DNA of 24,463 bases from IMG/VR virus record IMGVR_UViG_3300006068_000011, positions 1-24,463 of that record; one strand, written 5' to 3'. Of the stretch, positions 2,302 to 8,204 are shown in pieces. The translations under genes and the position numbers were made by a program. The notes beneath the pieces are model-generated. The model was given only the letters and a program-made list of their open reading frames with translations, was not told the DNA's origin and made no database searches. The stretch comes from a virus. Taxonomy: Duplodnaviria > Caudoviricetes. Numbering within the stretch: position 1 is the first letter of the stretch; the number at the start of each line of letters is the position of its first letter.

Positions 2302-2913
2302 TTATTTACGACGTTTTAGATAGCTCTTATCTGGACTGTGTTCTAATATTTCATGTGCCCAACTCTTTCCTCTATCAAAAAATTCATGAAAATCAGATAA
2401 AGCCAAATCGTCTAAAACGCTTACGCAATGTTCAAAATTAGCCCTTAAATGATTTTTTACGCTGTCATTATCTATGTATTTTAAGTACTTATTAAAAGCG
2501 TCCACCACGGCATCTTTATGCTCTTGCCACCACTGAGTAAGATGCGATTGCGCATCATACTATACCGACGGGTAGGTCTTTTGCTTTTATACTGTCCATA
2601 GTATCTAAAACTGACGAAACGGTTTTAGCATTCCGATTACTTTATCGCCTTGTTAATATCAGTTTCAGAACCGTCCCACCAAGCTTATCGCTCTTTTAAG
2701 AACCAGATCGCAAAAATTAACCAGCGAGGAATGGTGTGGGTTATCATTTGGATTTGAATATATTCCTAACTCTTTTGCCTTATCGATATTGAATTTGGTT
2801 TCATGGGGTATTTTTTAAGATAAACTTTTTGCGTGTAAAGCAATAATAAGGGTTTCGGGGAGCTTTTTGCTTGAAAATGATTTAGGTTTTAATTTTGCAG
2901 ACAAATTGTCCAT
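2302..2913 (-). pseudogene. Decayed gene of unknown function (in-frame stop plus apparent frameshifts)
   Basis: A GGGGG SD and ATG at 2913 begin MDNLSAKLKPK...; there is an in-frame TAA at 2815-2817, then the same frame continues KIPHETKFNIDKAKELGIYSNPND... to a TGA at 2665-2667. Protein-like text then hops frames (AWWDGSETDINKAIK; NAKTVSSVLDTMDSIKAKDLPVGI) and rejoins the original frame as YDAQSHLTQWWQEHKDAVVDAFNK...KRRK-stop. Confidence 0.55.
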
Positions 2914-2947
2914 AGCACCCCCACATATCTACAATACCTACAAAATA

Positions 2948-2955
2948 AAAATTAT
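2948..2955 (-). promoter_or_regulatory. One-mismatch variant (ATAATTTT) of the candidate late promoter motif
   Basis: Its context CATAATTTTATTTTGTAGG closely resembles CATAATCTTATTGTTTGTAGG at 1984-2004, and it lies upstream of the ATG at 2913. Confidence 0.35.
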
Positions 2956-2961
2956 GGCTAT

Positions 2962-2993
2962 AAAAAATACAAAAATGCCTATTTTTTAGGCAT
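2962..2993 (-). terminator. Intrinsic terminator candidate
   Basis: Perfect 7-bp stem ATGCCTA/TAGGCAT (2975-2981 with 2987-2993), followed on the minus strand by TTTTGTATTTTTT. Confidence 0.6.
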
Positions 2994-3249
2994 CTTAACG
3001 ATTTCTTGACAATTTTTAGGATTATTTTGGGTAGAGTACCCCGTGAAAAAATTTTAGAGATAGAAGATTCTTTTTTTTCAGGGAAACAATACCCACTCAA
3101 GACGCTAACGCGTCTTTCGGAGTATTGGAAACAAGCAACTGCTGCGAAGAAGCATAACGGCTTTAGGTACGCTTAACTATTTACTACTGAATAAAACCAC
3201 AAGCTGTAAACAGCTTTTAGAATCTGAATTTTTATGAATCTTATTATGT
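2965..3249 (-). ncRNA. Candidate structured non-coding RNA B (about 285 nt)
   Basis: Lies between a TTGACA-N16-TAAAAT promoter and the terminator at 2962-2993. Contains hairpins AAGCTG/CAGCTT, AAGACGC/GCGTCTT nested in CAATACTC/GGGTATTG (G-U pair only on the minus strand), and TGAAAAA/TTTTTCA. No SD-led ORF. Confidence 0.4.
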
Positions 3250-3255
3250 GTTCTA

Positions 3256-3283
3256 ATTTTATATTTTTATTTTTATGTGTCAA
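3256..3283 (-). promoter_or_regulatory. Sigma70-type promoter candidate
   Basis: Minus strand TTGACA (3283-3278), 16-nt spacer, TAAAAT (3261-3256), in a very AT-rich tract. A second TTGACA lies at 3310-3305. Confidence 0.55.
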
Positions 3284-3330
3284 TTTTTATGTTTCAACAA
3301 CCAATGTCAACAACTATATTCATTCCTATA

Positions 3331-3692
3331 CCCTTAAAGGGGAGGAGAGCCAAGGATGAAGAATTAGATTCCTAACATCATCATTCCGTTCCTTGGCTCC
3401 CCCGAAGGGGGAAGGAAACCAGAGGAAGGAATAGGTTTAGGAACATCGTCATCCTGAACATCATCATTCCGTTCCTTGGCTCCCCCGAAGGGGGAAGGAA
3501 ACCAGAGGAAGGAAGTGTATACCGGAATACAGTCTCCAGATCTTGGCTCCCCCGAAGGGGAAGGGAGATTAGATTCTGGATGCCAATATCCGAATATCGA
3601 TACGCTAACACAGATTCCAGAACATCAACAATCGAGCATCGTCATTAGGGATACCGTTTCCGTTCCTTGGCTCCCCTTTTTTTAAAAAAGGA
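3331..3692. repeat. Cluster of hairpin-containing repeats (CTTGGCTC core followed by a C-run/G-run hairpin)
   Basis: Exact 58-nt direct repeat at 3374-3431 and 3457-3514. A third partial copy CTTGGCTCCCCCGAAGGGG is at 3542-3560. A fourth, TTCCGTTCCTTGGCTCCCC at 3658-3676, is followed by a CCTTTTTT/AAAAAAGG inverted repeat. An inverted copy (GAGCCAAGGA at 3347-3356) is preceded by CCCTTAAAGGG. Confidence 0.92.
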
Positions 3693-4080
3693 AGACGGTC
3701 TTTAGACCGCAAGATTCGGATATTGTGTTCTGGATACTGTTGGAATGAATTAGTAAGATTGTGAAATTGTCTTAAACAACGATATTCAAAATCATCATTG
3801 TCCGTGACATTGGTTAACTTAAGTAAATAAATTGTGTTGTTCGGACCATCGTTATCTGCTTGATTGTTTCCTAATGACTATATCCAAATATTGTATTTTT
3901 GATTCTAACACCTCCTTTCTGTGTCGTTGATACATATAAATCTAACTACTATGTCCAAGCATCGGACAAAACTACGAAAAGCGTCCTGGACTACTAAATG
4001 GATGCATCGTTTTTATGAATATAAGTTATTAGAACAAACAAGCCGCCGACAACGAAGTTGGAGAGCGTCCGCTGTTTTTT

Positions 4081-4161
4081 AAAAAGAAAAAGAAAAAATA
4101 AAAAGCCCCACTACCTCTTTTGGGTCAATTTTCAAAAAAACGCATTAACCCATAAGAGGTA
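4081..4161 (-). terminator. Long hairpin plus U-tract, candidate 3' end of RNA A
   Basis: 18-bp stem pairing 4112-4129 with 4144-4161 (one mismatch, one pair that is G-U only on the minus strand). A 24-nt almost pure U tract (4104-4081) follows after 7 nt; this gap is atypical for a canonical terminator. Confidence 0.45.
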
Positions 4162-4557
4162 TCCTGAAAATTTTTTCTAGGAGGTCAGCATCTTTTGGCT
4201 ACAAGATGCAAGAAGCACGAGTCACGCTTATGGGCCCAAAAATACCCATAGGAGAATTCCTTGCCCCAGGGAATTGCACCCTAGGATTGGTTACGCATGA
4301 ACCTCGATCCCTCTAGGACCGCCTCCCGTCTCCAATGCGAGAAACGATCACGGGCCTTGTTTTCGAGACTATTACCCTGAGGGATTGTTTGTTTACGACG
4401 CCTAGAACCGCCGTTTAAGGTGATCCGCTTTGGGTTTATTGTTCAAACCCGTGCACTTTTGACTCACTCCTCTCTTGATTTGTGCTGACAAAGCCCTCGT
4501 CGTTATTTGTCCAAGGCATACCCCATCTACGTTTTTTGTAAGTATGCGGACTTGTCT
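4100..4557 (-). ncRNA. Candidate large structured non-coding RNA A (about 460 nt)
   Basis: ORF-free and visibly GC-richer than its flanks, packed with helices: GTCC/GGAC plus GCATAC/GTATGC (4509-4551), ACGACG/CGTCGT (4395-4503), GGGTTT/AAACCC (4432-4450), CGTTTCT/GGAGACG (4327-4346), T-loop-like CCTAGGG-TGCAATT-CCCTGGG (4265-4285), TATGGG/CCCATA (4229-4250), GCATCTT/AAGATGC (4188-4209). Bounded by a promoter and a terminator-like element. Confidence 0.55.
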
Positions 4558-4563
4558 ATGCAT

Positions 4564-4592
4564 ATTATATCCTAGAATGAGACAAAAAACAA
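4564..4592 (-). promoter_or_regulatory. Sigma70-type promoter candidate for RNA A
   Basis: Minus strand TTGTTT (4592-4587), 17-nt spacer, perfect TATAAT (4569-4564), with A-tracts upstream that resemble an UP element. Confidence 0.6.
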
Positions 4593-4618
4593 ATAATTAT
4601 TTTCTTTTTTTGTTTTTT

Positions 4619-4642
4619 TGTTATTATGTTTATTGTAGGAGG
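4619..4642 (+). promoter_or_regulatory. Extended -10 promoter candidate and SD of the RNase H gene
   Basis: TG-T-TATTAT at 4619-4627 and AGGAGG at 4637-4642, before the ATG at 4647. Confidence 0.45.
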
Positions 4643-4646
4643 TTGT

Positions 4647-5081
4647 ATGGATAAAATTATTGAGGTTTACACGGATGGAGGGTATAGGCCGCTACAAAGG
4701 GTAGGGGCTTATGCTTTTGGCATAAAAATAAACGGTAAGACCCGTTTTGAAGCAGGCATTAAAAAAGGCCATAACCTAAACTCTAATTATGTAGAGTTTA
4801 CTGCCTTTATAGAGGCTATTAAACACCTAAAGAAAAAAGGCGTCCTTAATAAGAGGGCTAATATCGTGGTCTATACCGATAGCCTAAACTTAAAAAACAC
4901 ATACGATGGGCTTTGTTTTTTTTACAGCTTAAAGTCTTTGAGTGCGACCATACGAAAAATCAAAAAACGTTATGGATCCATGATAGAGGTTGTTTGGGTG
5001 CCCAGAAACAGTGTGTTTGAGCAAAAAGTATGCGATTTACGATGCAATATGGCTATGGATCACGCTTTGGTTAAAAGGTAA
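4647..5081 (+). CDS. rnhA: Ribonuclease HI
   Basis: All four acidic catalytic positions are present in the expected motifs: IEVYTDGG, NSNYVEFTAFIEAI, IVVYTDS, and VVWVPRNS...VCDLRCNMAM. Start moved to the ATG at 4647 because of the AGGAGG SD. Confidence 0.9.
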   Translation: MDKIIEVYTDGGYRPLQRVGAYAFGIKINGKTRFEAGIKKGHNLNSNYVEFTAFIEAIKHLKKKGVLNKRANIVVYTDSLNLKNTYDGLCFFYSLKSLSATIRKIKKRYGSMIEVVWVPRNSVFEQKVCDLRCNMAMDHALVKR

Positions 5082-6195: not shown

Positions 6196-6885
6196 CTATT
6201 CTTCTATATCGTCAGGGCCCCAAACAATAACCTTTTCGCTATTTTCTGTGCCCCATTCCCCAAGCCCAATGTCGTTTGGATACAAAATATGTATAATTAC
6301 GCGTATTCCTGTGGCCAAAATGCTTTTAATTAGGTCTATGGCATAAAGCCGTCCAGCAATAATGTCCGTTAGATAAAAGGCATAATCCCTACCGATTTTA
6401 TCGGGCATGTGGGGGCCGATTTTTTCTATGAAACGAATGGACGATCCAGATAAGTGCTTGTTTTTAAAAAAATAATTTGGGGCAATACTGATTAAGTTGT
6501 TGGCAGGAATGCCGATATAGGGAATAGGACCTTCTTCGTTTTCCATCCCGTAGTTCAAAACGACGTATCCTTCTTGTGGAAAATTAGAAAAATTAACACC
6601 TTGAACAAGTCCCGTGTCGCCTATTTCTATGGTATTGGTTATTGTCGTGTTTTTGTCGGAAATTGTGTAGGGCTGGCTTAAAAGGTATGAATAAGGTCCT
6701 TCTTGCTCAGGTATCAATTCGATAGGGTTTGGTATGCTGCTAGAAGTAGCGGTGCCGTCCATCCCAATTTGTTCTATGACTATATTTAATCCGGACACGT
6801 TTACGTTAGTTGGCGATACCACGACACCGACCTTGGTTTGCGCCACTTTTATGGTTGGCGAGTTTACGGTTAGGCTTGTGAAATC
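6196..6885 (-). CDS. C-terminal portion of a frameshift-split baseplate wedge protein
   Basis: The frame is open from 6885 (DFTSLTVNSPTIKVAQTKVG...) and overlaps the end of the upstream ORF. The GTG at 6846 has no SD. The C-terminal DLIKSILATGIRVIIH resembles the wedge-subunit motif I..IKPAG. Confidence 0.65.
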   Translation of the reverse strand, partial: DFTSLTVNSPTIKVAQTKVGVVVSPTNVNVSGLNIVIEQIGMDGTATSSSIPNPIELIPEQEGPYSYLLSQPYTISDKNTTITNTIEIGDTGLVQGVNFSNFPQEGYVVLNYGMENEEGPIPYIGIPANNLISIAPNYFFKNKHLSGSSIRFIEKIGPHMPDKIGRDYAFYLTDIIAGRLYAIDLIKSILATGIRVIIHILYPNDIGLGEWGTENSEKVIVWGPDDIEE

Positions 6886-8204
6886 TCAGTCATACCGGCA
6901 ATGTTTATACGAACAGGGTGCGGAGTGGCCATGGGGTCAACAAGGTTTGAGCCTGTTGTGTCGAAATAAACATAGTATTGATTCCCTGTATTTTTGCCTG
7001 TGATTAGAAAATAATCACCATCGTTAATTGCTGAAGGGGCGGGGACTGTTATGGAATAAACGGCACCTATACCTTCGGTTTCCGAATATGAATACAAAAT
7101 AGGTTCATGGATATGGGCCGCTCCTCGCCTATCCCTTCTTACCACCTTAGTCGTTGCTGGAATAAAAAGCTCTAAAGTATTGCTTTCTGTTTGAAATAGG
7201 GCTGTATATCGTGGTTTTGATTGTCCAATAATCTCTTTGGGGTAAAAAAACAAAGCGCCGTCTATTGTGCCCTGTGTAGCTGTTTGTGATACCGCTAGTG
7301 GGTTGTAAAACTCAATATACGCAGACCCCGGCGTAGAACCACCTTGGACCTTTGTTACATAAAAAGTTCCTCTGTTTTGGGGTAAAAATGAAGGAGCAAA
7401 CAAATTGGCGTAGTCCCCGGCCTTAATTTTACCGATAGATGGGCTGGCCCCACCTATCCAGCTAAATCTGACATTTCCATTTCCTAACGGAAAAAATTGC
7501 CAAACCGTTGATGGGCCATTGGTTGTGGGCCTAGGTGAAGGAAAAACAAGTACGTTTTGTGCCTTTCCCCCTACAACCGCTATCATAGATGAAGGACCTT
7601 TTGTTTCTGAAAAAAGGCTTACACAAAAACCGCTTCCTGTGTCCTTGGCAATGGCCTTTCCCGAATAACCCCTTTTCTTTAATTCTCTAGTTATAGCCGA
7701 CGCAACCTCTTGAGCTGTAGCAGCATTGATGTTGCTAAATTGGCTTGCAAAAAACTTGATTTTAATAACTTCTTCTGACCCGTCAAATTTAATCCATAAA
7801 TCATCGCCATCGTTTAGTGAGAATGGTTCCAAACCAATACTGTCCACATAGGCCTGATTTAGATCTTCCCCAAAAATAACGCTTAACAGGTTATTGACAA
7901 GGTCTCGGACCTGCTTTTTGTTTTTAATTGATATGCCAATACCTCTAAAAACATCGTCCCCAAGCCCTACCCTAGGGTCTCTGGTTATACCGAAGTCCGA
8001 CAATTTTGCGTCAAGGTATTGCTCAGAAGCCCTAGAAATGTATAGGTTTTCAGCAACGGACTCTAAAGAAAAAATATGATAAGCATGTGCGGAGGCAATC
8101 GCTTTTAATAAGGCATCTGTGTTAGGCCCTCGGATAGCAGAGTTTAACAATGCCCTTAGGTATTCGTATGCTTTTTGTTTGTCGCTATTAGACGGGCCAC
8201 TCAT
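6870..8204 (-). CDS. Baseplate wedge protein (P2 gpI / T4 gp7-like position), N-terminal portion
   Basis: Starts 1 nt after the baseplate J stop. The N-terminal LYISRASEQYLDAKLSDFGITR...GDDVFR resembles the A.G..LD..G...G..R...D..YR motif of gpI-like wedge proteins. Confidence 0.7.
   Translation of the reverse strand: MSGPSNSDKQKAYEYLRALLNSAIRGPNTDALLKAIASAHAYHIFSLESVAENLYISRASEQYLDAKLSDFGITRDPRVGLGDDVFRGIGISIKNKKQVRDLVNNLLSVIFGEDLNQAYVDSIGLEPFSLNDGDDLWIKFDGSEEVIKIKFFASQFSNINAATAQEVASAITRELKKRGYSGKAIAKDTGSGFCVSLFSETKGPSSMIAVVGGKAQNVLVFPSPRPTTNGPSTVWQFFPLGNGNVRFSWIGGASPSIGKIKAGDYANLFAPSFLPQNRGTFYVTKVQGGSTPGSAYIEFYNPLAVSQTATQGTIDGALFFYPKEIIGQSKPRYTALFQTESNTLELFIPATTKVVRRDRRGAAHIHEPILYSYSETEGIGAVYSITVPAPSAINDGDYFLITGKNTGNQYYVYFDTTGSNLVDPMATPHPVRINIAGMTEISQA

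What the first reader, a model, noticed from the sequence alone, without database searches (positions are those of the whole stretch)
4081..4592. Candidate novel large structured ncRNA (RNA A, about 460 nt) with a T-loop-like hairpin and alternative folds
Seen: a complete-looking transcription unit (TTGTTT-N17-TATAAT through to an 18-bp hairpin and U-tract) with no ORF of 60 aa or more. It has at least eight helices, including a long-range ACGACG/CGTCGT pairing that closes a multibranch domain, and a GGG-UGCAAUU-CCC hairpin resembling a tRNA T-arm. That hairpin is mutually exclusive with two other helices (AATTCC/GGAATT at 4255-4275 and CCTAG/CTAGG at 4280-4317), hinting at a conformational switch. 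I see no tmRNA, RNase P or group I/II intron signatures. Established: phages encode large structured RNAs such as GOLLD and ROOL. Caveat: several helices gain G-U pairs on the plus strand instead, so the strand call rests mainly on the promoter and terminator.
Basis: partly seen in the sequence, partly recalled or inferred. Interest (0 to 1): 0.7.

Follow-up and report, generated by a model that had tools for sequence, protein, structure and literature searches.

The report
Orphan phage RNA with tRNA arm
A hot-spring phage carries a 500-base protein-free stretch with a promoter-like start, many predicted hairpins and one hairpin of the form of a tRNA's T arm; it is likely a stable RNA that mimics part of a tRNA and it matches no catalogued RNA family, but with only one near-identical relative its fold and job remain untested.

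Summary
The unit is real: minus-strand TTGTTT-N17-TATAAT, no ORF of 60 aa, folding better than shuffles (z -3.7), no Rfam, tRNA, tmRNA or RNase P match. The T-loop hairpin (4264-4286) is the solid core: the same 13 letters form the T arm of two real tRNA genes in a related phage. A canonical-shaped anticodon arm and a variable-arm-like hairpin lie just upstream, but no stable acceptor stem forms. The 'switch' helices cost 7-9 kcal/mol and one is broken in the only relative. ACGACG/CGUCGU loses to a local hairpin. The U-tract starts 7 nt after the long hairpin. New here: the 5' end can pair with 4034-4046, beyond the U-tract (3 of 300 shuffles), so the RNA may be about 525 nt. Only one full-length relative was found (97%, 11 changes), so covariation could not be tested; its 350-nt core carries fewer changes than silent sites (2/351 vs 42/1097, boundary chosen afterwards). 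Best reading: an uncatalogued phage stable RNA built around a degenerate tRNA module, working as a non-decoding tRNA mimic (0.45). Rivals: decayed tRNA unit; origin primer beside RNase H.

The parts
4587..4592 (-). -35-like hexamer TTGTTT (3 of 6)
   Evidence: sequence; unchanged in relative L001
4564..4569 (-). -10 hexamer TATAAT; inferred start near 4557
4546..4559 (-). 5' arm of the predicted closing stalk (13 bp, one bulged U)
   Evidence: probability 0.67-0.97; 3 of 300 shuffles give as good a partner
4516..4547 (-). hairpin GCAUACUU/GGGUAUGC (partly competes with the stalk)
   Evidence: the relative's changes at 4524 and 4533 fall in its loop
4453..4485 (-). 4-bp stem around a variable purine-rich loop
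   Evidence: 5 of the 11 changes in the relative lie in this loop; weak
4432..4450 (-). hairpin GGGUUUG/UAAACCC
   Evidence: probability 0.89
4395..4414 (-). hairpin ACGGCG/CGUCGU
   Evidence: probability 0.96
4379..4385 (-). 5' strand of helix AUCCCUC/GAGGGAU (partner 4307-4313); excludes the anticodon-like arm
   Evidence: probability 0.89; C-G becomes U-G in the relative
4327..4346 (-). D-position hairpin (7 bp, non-canonical loop)
   Evidence: invariant in relative
4305..4321 (-). anticodon-arm-shaped hairpin CGGUC-CUAGAGG-GAUCG (AGA)
   Evidence: 90 of 20000 shuffles, 18 of 2322 window positions; costs +4.8 kcal/mol with the other arms
4289..4303 (-). variable-arm-like hairpin GGUU/AACC
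   Evidence: probability 0.63, 0.22 in the relative
4264..4286 (-). T arm: 8-bp stem, loop UGCAAUU
   Evidence: probability 0.94, 0.89 at 65 C; same 13-mer in tRNA-Arg and tRNA-His genes of related phage G004
4162..4261 (-). four consecutive hairpins (4250-4261, 4229-4250, 4188-4209, 4162-4182)
   Evidence: probabilities 0.8-0.99; the change at 4256 falls in a tetraloop
4112..4161 (-). long hairpin (17 pairs, one mismatch)
4081..4104 (-). U-tract, 7 nt after the hairpin; candidate (leaky) terminator
4034..4046 (-).
   Evidence: unchanged in relative
4626..5081 (+). divergent neighbour: RNase HI-like gene, acidic catalytic residues present by inspection
   Evidence: Pfam RNase_H E 9e-8, PHROG 531 E 8e-17, Atlas

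Best explanation
This is likely a stand-alone phage gene for a stable non-coding RNA of 455-525 bases, predicted to fold around a degenerate tRNA module, that would act as a non-decoding tRNA mimic. Shown: promoter-like site, absence of an ORF, hairpins, a T arm of the type used by tRNA genes of related phages, no stable acceptor stem, no CCA. Inferred: host RNA polymerase starts near 4557; some transcripts stop at the U-tract and read-through ones close a 5'/3' stalk that would protect the ends; the T arm (with the anticodon-like and variable-like arms if they form) presents a tRNA elbow that binds or titrates host tRNA-recognising proteins, such as processing or modifying enzymes or tRNA-cutting defence nucleases. 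Which protein is a guess.
For: Promoter and U-tract are each one of 2 such sites. z -3.7 to -4.0. T-arm pattern occurs once in the window, 0 of 100 shuffles (the pattern was written from this hairpin). Exact T-arm 13-mer in two ARAGORN-called tRNA genes of a related phage. Anticodon-arm shape at the right distance, 0.45-0.8% by chance. The best of 90 relaxed ARAGORN calls in the window is this module, score 89.5 against a pass mark of 100. Core 4110-4460 has 2 changes in 351 nt against 42 in 1097 four-fold sites, p 5e-4; whole unit 11 in 524, p 0.04. 5'/3' stalk: 3 of 300 shuffles, and the relative's two changes at 4511-4512 break the local helix that competes with it. Relatives of this phage carry tRNA arrays and tmRNA.
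Against: No covariation test was possible: of 11 changes, 3 fall in pairs of probability 0.6 or more (2 kept, 1 broken; p 0.12). The core boundary was chosen after seeing the data, and recombination between near-identical phages can also give low-change patches; the 5' 97 nt carry 9 changes. The cloverleaf costs +4.8 kcal/mol and competes with a helix of probability 0.89. Outside the T arm the module is no closer to 50 phage tRNAs than shuffles are (204 of 300). No tRNA model match at E 10 or better. No homologue in 21 related virus records or phage Mx1. Without the long hairpin the fold is only z -2.1.
Confidence: 0.45

Rival explanations
1. It is the decaying remains of a small tRNA transcription unit (promoter, leader, a Ser-type tRNA pseudogene, trailer, terminator) with little or no present function.
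For: Arms in tRNA order without a stable acceptor stem; ARAGORN calls it a possible Ser(AGA) pseudogene only at a relaxed threshold; tRNA arrays occur in related phages; no distant homologue; one read set ends in unlike sequence 20 nt into the unit, which may be an insertion.
Against: The tRNA-like core is the least changed part; ten or more further helices and the end-to-end stalk are not expected of a decayed leader.
Confidence: 0.2
2. It is a replication-primer RNA, as recalled for ColE1 RNA II and T4 R-loop origins: the transcript folds, stays hybridised to the template near its G-rich/U-rich end, and the neighbouring phage RNase H trims it to a primer.
For: Divergent neighbour is an RNase HI-like gene; transcription points to 58-nt direct repeats at 3374-3581 and a stretch of 23-25% GC at 3160-3340; size near 500 nt.
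Against: No switch of GC skew here; phage RNase H genes are a common family and need no such partner; 0 of 81 related loci besides the near-identical one show this RNase H by tblastn, so linkage could not be tested; it leaves the T arm unexplained. The ColE1/T4 mechanism is recalled; in PMC4083084 I saw only reference titles on it.
Confidence: 0.15
3. It is a 5' leader or attenuator that senses tRNA-binding factors or a ligand and controls read-through into 3900-3300.
For: A 10-bp anti-terminator pairing exists (4236-4227 with 4156-4147); a strong Shine-Dalgarno-like site lies at 3910-3921; a boxA-like 15-mer with one mismatch sits in the long hairpin.
Against: The anti-terminator costs +18 kcal/mol; no started ORF follows the Shine-Dalgarno-like site in either phage; no riboswitch match; the boxA-like site lacks the C shared by the E. 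coli and B. subtilis consensus given in PMC13753749.
Confidence: 0.1
4. It is not an RNA gene: hairpin-rich DNA of an origin or genome-end region, with chance matches to tRNA arms.
For: The plus strand also folds (z -2.8); neighbouring non-coding blocks fold as well (z -3.8 at 2960-3260); local 120-nt windows in the unit reach only z -2.4 on the minus strand.
Against: Promoter, T loop and U-tract all read on one strand; the fold from 4557 to 4250 is strand-biased (z -2.15 against -0.33); the 4382 change keeps a pair only on the minus strand.
Confidence: 0.1

Closest known systems
Class II tRNA (Rfam RF00005; Ser/Leu type) and phage tRNA genes with a G55 T loop
   Same: T arm letter for letter as in tRNA-Arg and tRNA-His genes of related phage G004; anticodon-arm shape and a variable-arm-like hairpin in tRNA order
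   Different: No stable acceptor stem, no CCA, non-canonical D region, embedded in a 500-nt unit; no model match
T4 RNAC/RNAD (species 1 and 2) and the phage tRNA-shaped RNAs with an insert in place of the anticodon arm
   Same: Phage non-coding RNA with a T arm and unknown function (T4; PMC9697503 passages); the T-arm type is shared with an uncatalogued phage family seen here
   Different: Three to four times longer; lacks the Leu-type D arm and the covarying 7-bp acceptor; the family model matches the T arm only, 11.8 bits against 60-73 for three held-out members
GOLLD and ROOL RNAs
   Same: Large structured phage RNA of unknown function; GOLLD can carry tRNAs in its linker (bioRxiv 10.1101/2024.12.08.627333, passages)
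   Different: No Rfam match; no tRNA island in the window; no evidence for ornate, pseudoknotted or covarying structure
tmRNA, one-piece and permuted
   Same: T arm inside a 300-500 nt RNA; relatives Mx1 and G018 encode tmRNA
   Different: No model match; no G3-U70 acceptor; relaxed ARAGORN calls are unidentified tags
YrlA Y RNAs
   Same: tRNA-like T arm inside a longer RNA whose ends pair (PMC4201824, passages)
   Different: No Ro60 gene among 17 window proteins scanned; no Rfam match; the permuted acceptor costs +7.1 kcal/mol and the following loop lacks GG

Membership tests
tRNA (RF00005) | T arm with T-loop consensus | tested here: met
   G at position 55, seen in 3 of 50 fetched phage tRNAs
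tRNA (RF00005) | 5-bp anticodon stem with Y-U-N-N-N-R-N loop | tested here: inconclusive
   shape present but competes with a helix of probability 0.89
tRNA (RF00005) | 7-bp acceptor stem, discriminator, CCA | tested here: not met
   local stem has 1 mismatch and 3 G-U and must unzip the T stem; distal partner costs +12.9 kcal/mol; no CCA
tRNA (RF00005) | covariance-model or ARAGORN pass | tested here: not met
   relaxed score 89.5
Phage tRNA-shaped insert RNAs (model R1) | 6-bp T arm with UGCAANU loop | tested here: met
Phage tRNA-shaped insert RNAs (model R1) | Leu-type D arm right after a 7-bp acceptor strand | tested here: not met
tmRNA | model match, G3-U70 acceptor, resume codon and tag frame | tested here: not met
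GOLLD / ROOL | Rfam model match | tested here: not met
GOLLD / ROOL | extensive covarying, multimer-forming structure | not testable with these tools
   one relative only
YrlA Y RNA | adjacent Ro60 gene | tested here: not met
   the record is 15% complete
YrlA Y RNA | permuted T - acceptor - D order | tested here: inconclusive
   7-bp downstream partner exists, +7.1 kcal/mol
RNase P RNA (bacterial A) | model match; P1-P4 core | tested here: not met
   the stalk's bulged U recalls P4 (recalled) but no P2/P3 lies upstream
Group I / II introns | catalytic core match | tested here: not met
Intrinsic terminator | U-tract within 2 nt of a GC-rich stem | tested here: not met
   7-nt gap
ColE1/T4-type primer RNA | persistent R-loop trimmed by RNase H at an origin | not testable with these tools
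   only the neighbourhood could be read

The most novel reading that the evidence does not exclude
A new class of about 525-nt, end-closed phage RNA that carries a tRNA-Ser-like module without an acceptor end and is paired with its own RNase H gene: either a tRNA-elbow decoy against host tRNA-targeting defences, or a tRNA-shaped primer that starts phage DNA replication at the repeats downstream.
Probability: 0.15. Interest if true: 0.8.

Novelty: new variant of a known kind. Interest (0 to 1): 0.45.

Why it matters
Large phage RNAs (GOLLD, ROOL, T4 RNAC/D) have no settled function. A thermophile-derived, promoter-bounded 500-nt RNA with a tRNA T arm would be an easy target for probing and cryo-EM and would add a size class between the 110-250 nt tRNA-shaped RNAs and the 600-800 nt cages. 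If it primes replication with the adjacent RNase H, it would tie tRNA mimicry to origin firing. With one relative and no transcript, it is a lead, not a discovery.

Tried and rejected
Homologue searches that gave only the near-identical record (L001/L124) or chance matches: blastn in phages and plasmids; patterns in viral contigs, metagenome contigs (2 chance hits) and genome contigs (2 hits, not examined beyond the model search); neighbour proteins; blastn/nhmmer over 81 related loci; blastn and model R2 over 23 whole records; R2 over 92 loci (T arm only apart from two weak full-span hits of 13-15 bits). In related phages the matching position holds genes, not a non-coding gap (39 loci mapped). 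Sequencing runs: no RNA holder listed, which says nothing on expression. Contigs of 4 DNA runs laid: X5 covers 4351-4521 with 7 differences that the output did not show; X6, X7 and X8 have no cover over most of the unit, which proves nothing. The profile search for relatives of the neighbour proteins never ran. Rejected: conformational switch; a compensatory pair seen by eye at 4479/4462, since the helix is not predicted in either sequence; RNase P, tmRNA, introns; recalled likeness to FMN and cobalamin riboswitch T loops (no Rfam match); an rRNA-spacer origin: GGAUCACCU (4426-4418; 6 of 100 shuffles) and a boxA-like 15-mer (4139-4125; 1 of 100) flank the tRNA-like module in spacer order, but they were picked by eye among many recalled motifs, the anti-Shine-Dalgarno part is missing and blastn to five rrn loci gave E 0.95 at best. 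Literature searches that found no description of this RNA or of phage Mx1's RNAs; most subscription journals are not in the library and no supplements were opened.

Full report
Setting. The window is a linear virus record, about 15% complete, with baseplate, tail and head genes of a large myophage. The closest cultured relative found is Myxococcus phage Mx1 at 31-34% protein identity. The best holders among public runs are hot-spring metagenomes, and two of the four runs laid give long pieces at 96-99% identity. The finding lies in a 2.6-kb stretch with only short ORFs, back to back with an RNase HI-like gene at 4626-5081.

Observation. The promoter-like site is as described and is one of 2 among 12 TATAAT sites with TTG at -35 spacing. 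No ORF reaches 60 aa. The minus strand folds at z -3.72, the plus strand at -2.83; much of this comes from the long 3' hairpin, and without it z is -2.1. Rfam gives nothing at gathering score and only chance rows at E up to 10. Three details fail. The U-tract begins 7 nt after the hairpin, so it is not a canonical terminator. CGUCGU prefers the local partner ACGGCG (probability 0.96) to ACGACG (+4.2 kcal/mol). The two helices said to rival the T arm cost +6.9 and +8.5 kcal/mol, and one is mismatched in the relative; the switch has no support.

A longer boundary. Folding past the U-tract shows that the first 14 nt can pair with 4046-4034, 13 bp with one bulge, at probability 0.67-0.97 in both phages and 0.8-0.9 at 65 C. 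This partner ranks second in the whole window apart from the self-complement, and 3 of 300 shuffles of the downstream 640 nt offer one as good. Both arms are unchanged in the relative, whose two changes at 4511-4512 break a local helix that competes with the stalk. So the RNA may be about 525 nt with a leaky internal stop. This is a prediction.

The T arm. The hairpin at 4264-4286 is predicted at 0.94. Its central 13 letters are the T arm of a tRNA-Arg and a tRNA-His gene in related phage G004, found in 1 of 5 records searched exactly; G at loop position 55 occurs in 3 of 50 fetched phage tRNAs, 7 unparsed. A degenerate pattern for it gave 120 viral stretches, 79 non-redundant. Of these, 32 matched a D-arm motif, several by chance; I kept 26 by eye and aligned 23. 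They form an uncatalogued set of 100-250 nt tRNA-shaped RNAs whose 7-bp acceptor covaries at all 7 pairs (94% of cells paired, 0 of 500 shuffles); 40 of the 120 loci were scanned against Rfam and gave only 4 ordinary tRNAs elsewhere in them. A model of this set scores the three held-out members at 60-73 bits but RNA A at 11.8 bits, T arm only. RNA A shares the arm, not the family.

A degenerate tRNA module. Upstream of the T arm lie a 4-bp hairpin, a 5-bp stem with a C-U-AGA-G-G loop, and a 7-bp hairpin, in tRNA order. The anticodon-arm shape arises in 90 of 20000 shuffles and 18 of 2322 window positions. Relaxed ARAGORN calls a Ser(AGA) pseudogene at 4260-4347, the best of 90 calls in the window (89.5, next 85.7, pass mark 100). 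Against it: the cloverleaf costs +4.8 kcal/mol and excludes AUCCCUC/GAGGGAU (0.89); no acceptor stem is stable, whether local, upstream (+12.9) or permuted (+7.1); the tRNA model finds nothing; and outside the T arm the likeness to phage tRNAs is at shuffle level (204 of 300).

Relatives. One full-length relative was found, 97.4% identical. It differs at 11 sites in 524 nt against 42 of 1097 four-fold sites (p 0.04); 2 lie in the 351-nt core (p 5e-4, boundary chosen afterwards) and 9 in the 5' 97 nt. Three fall in confidently predicted pairs, two kept and one broken (p 0.12). That is compatible with selection on the core but is not a covariation test. No other homologue appeared in any search.

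Mechanism. I put 0.45 on a stable, non-decoding tRNA-mimic RNA that presents a tRNA elbow to host tRNA-recognising proteins; transcription, the stalk, the elbow and the partner are all inferred. Rivals: a decayed tRNA unit (0.2); an origin primer trimmed by the neighbouring RNase H, suggested by 58-nt repeats at 3374-3581 and an AT-rich tract downstream but not by GC skew (0.15); an attenuator (0.1); structured DNA (0.1).

Comparison and novelty. It fails membership of tRNA, tmRNA, RNase P, GOLLD/ROOL, YrlA and the insert-bearing tRNA-shaped set. It resembles in kind the phage stable RNAs of unknown function: T4 RNAC/RNAD (PMC9697503, passages) and GOLLD/ROOL (bioRxiv 10.1101/2024.12.08.627333, passages); YrlA shows that tRNA modules inside longer RNAs are recognised by tRNA enzymes (PMC4201824, passages). 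The boxA consensus is from PMC13753749 (passages). IS608 papers were seen as a search listing only. Six library searches found no description of this RNA; no supplements were read. Earlier scan notes describe stem-closed tRNA-like cassettes in other phages; they are unchecked leads here. Verdict: a plausible, uncatalogued variant of phage tRNA-mimic RNAs, thinly supported; interest 0.45.

Noticed in passing
L006, L007, L009, L011, L013, L017, L023, L033, L037, L038, L041, L045, L049, L054-L056, L067, L074, L077, L078, L083, L086, L089, L097, L106, L114 (coordinates): Uncatalogued set of 100-250 nt phage tRNA-shaped RNAs: covarying 7-bp acceptor, Leu-type D arm, unrelated inserts, 6-bp T arm with G55. 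No Rfam hit in the loci scanned. Better supported than RNA A itself.
   Followed up: partly
window 4538 (run X6): A 5.2-kb contig matches 4538-6300 and then ends in 28 unlike GC-rich letters, right after TTAC on the minus strand. It resembles an IS200/IS605-type end (recalled; IS608 papers list TTAC), which would be an insertion 20 nt into the RNA.
   Followed up: no
window 3340-3690 and 3160-3340: Three to four copies of a GC-rich hairpin repeat (58 nt, spacing 83 and 67) beside an AT-rich tract; 2908-3550 is held by three of four runs laid. Candidate origin or genome-end element.
   Followed up: partly
window 2960-3260, minus strand: Second structured non-coding block, z -3.8.
   Followed up: no
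window 3910-3921, minus strand: Strong Shine-Dalgarno-like site with no started ORF behind it in either phage; a 90-codon stop-free frame at 3605-3877 has no NCBIfam hit.
   Followed up: partly
window 6196-8204: Two ORFs (444 and 216 aa) correspond to one 684-aa gene in the relative; the alignment has 46 gap columns here. Deletion in this phage or assembly fault.
   Followed up: partly
window 4582-4613: Imperfect AT-rich palindrome over the -35 region between the RNA and RNase H starts; possible operator (seen; z -3.3 on the plus strand).
   Followed up: no
window 4426-4418 and 4139-4125: A 16S 3'-end-like 9-mer and a boxA-like 15-mer each occur once in the window, both inside this unit on the minus strand, on either side of the tRNA-like module. 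Post hoc and weak.
   Followed up: partly
L243:593-969 (Myxococcus phage Mx1) and L264: tmRNA genes over the Rfam cut-off in Mx1 (118 bits) and related record G018 (66 bits).
   Followed up: no
L029, L003/L020/L032, L016, L015, L018/L019, L051/L101: Other recurring phage elements with the same T arm but no Leu-type D arm, some closed by a short stem, one duplicated.
   Followed up: no
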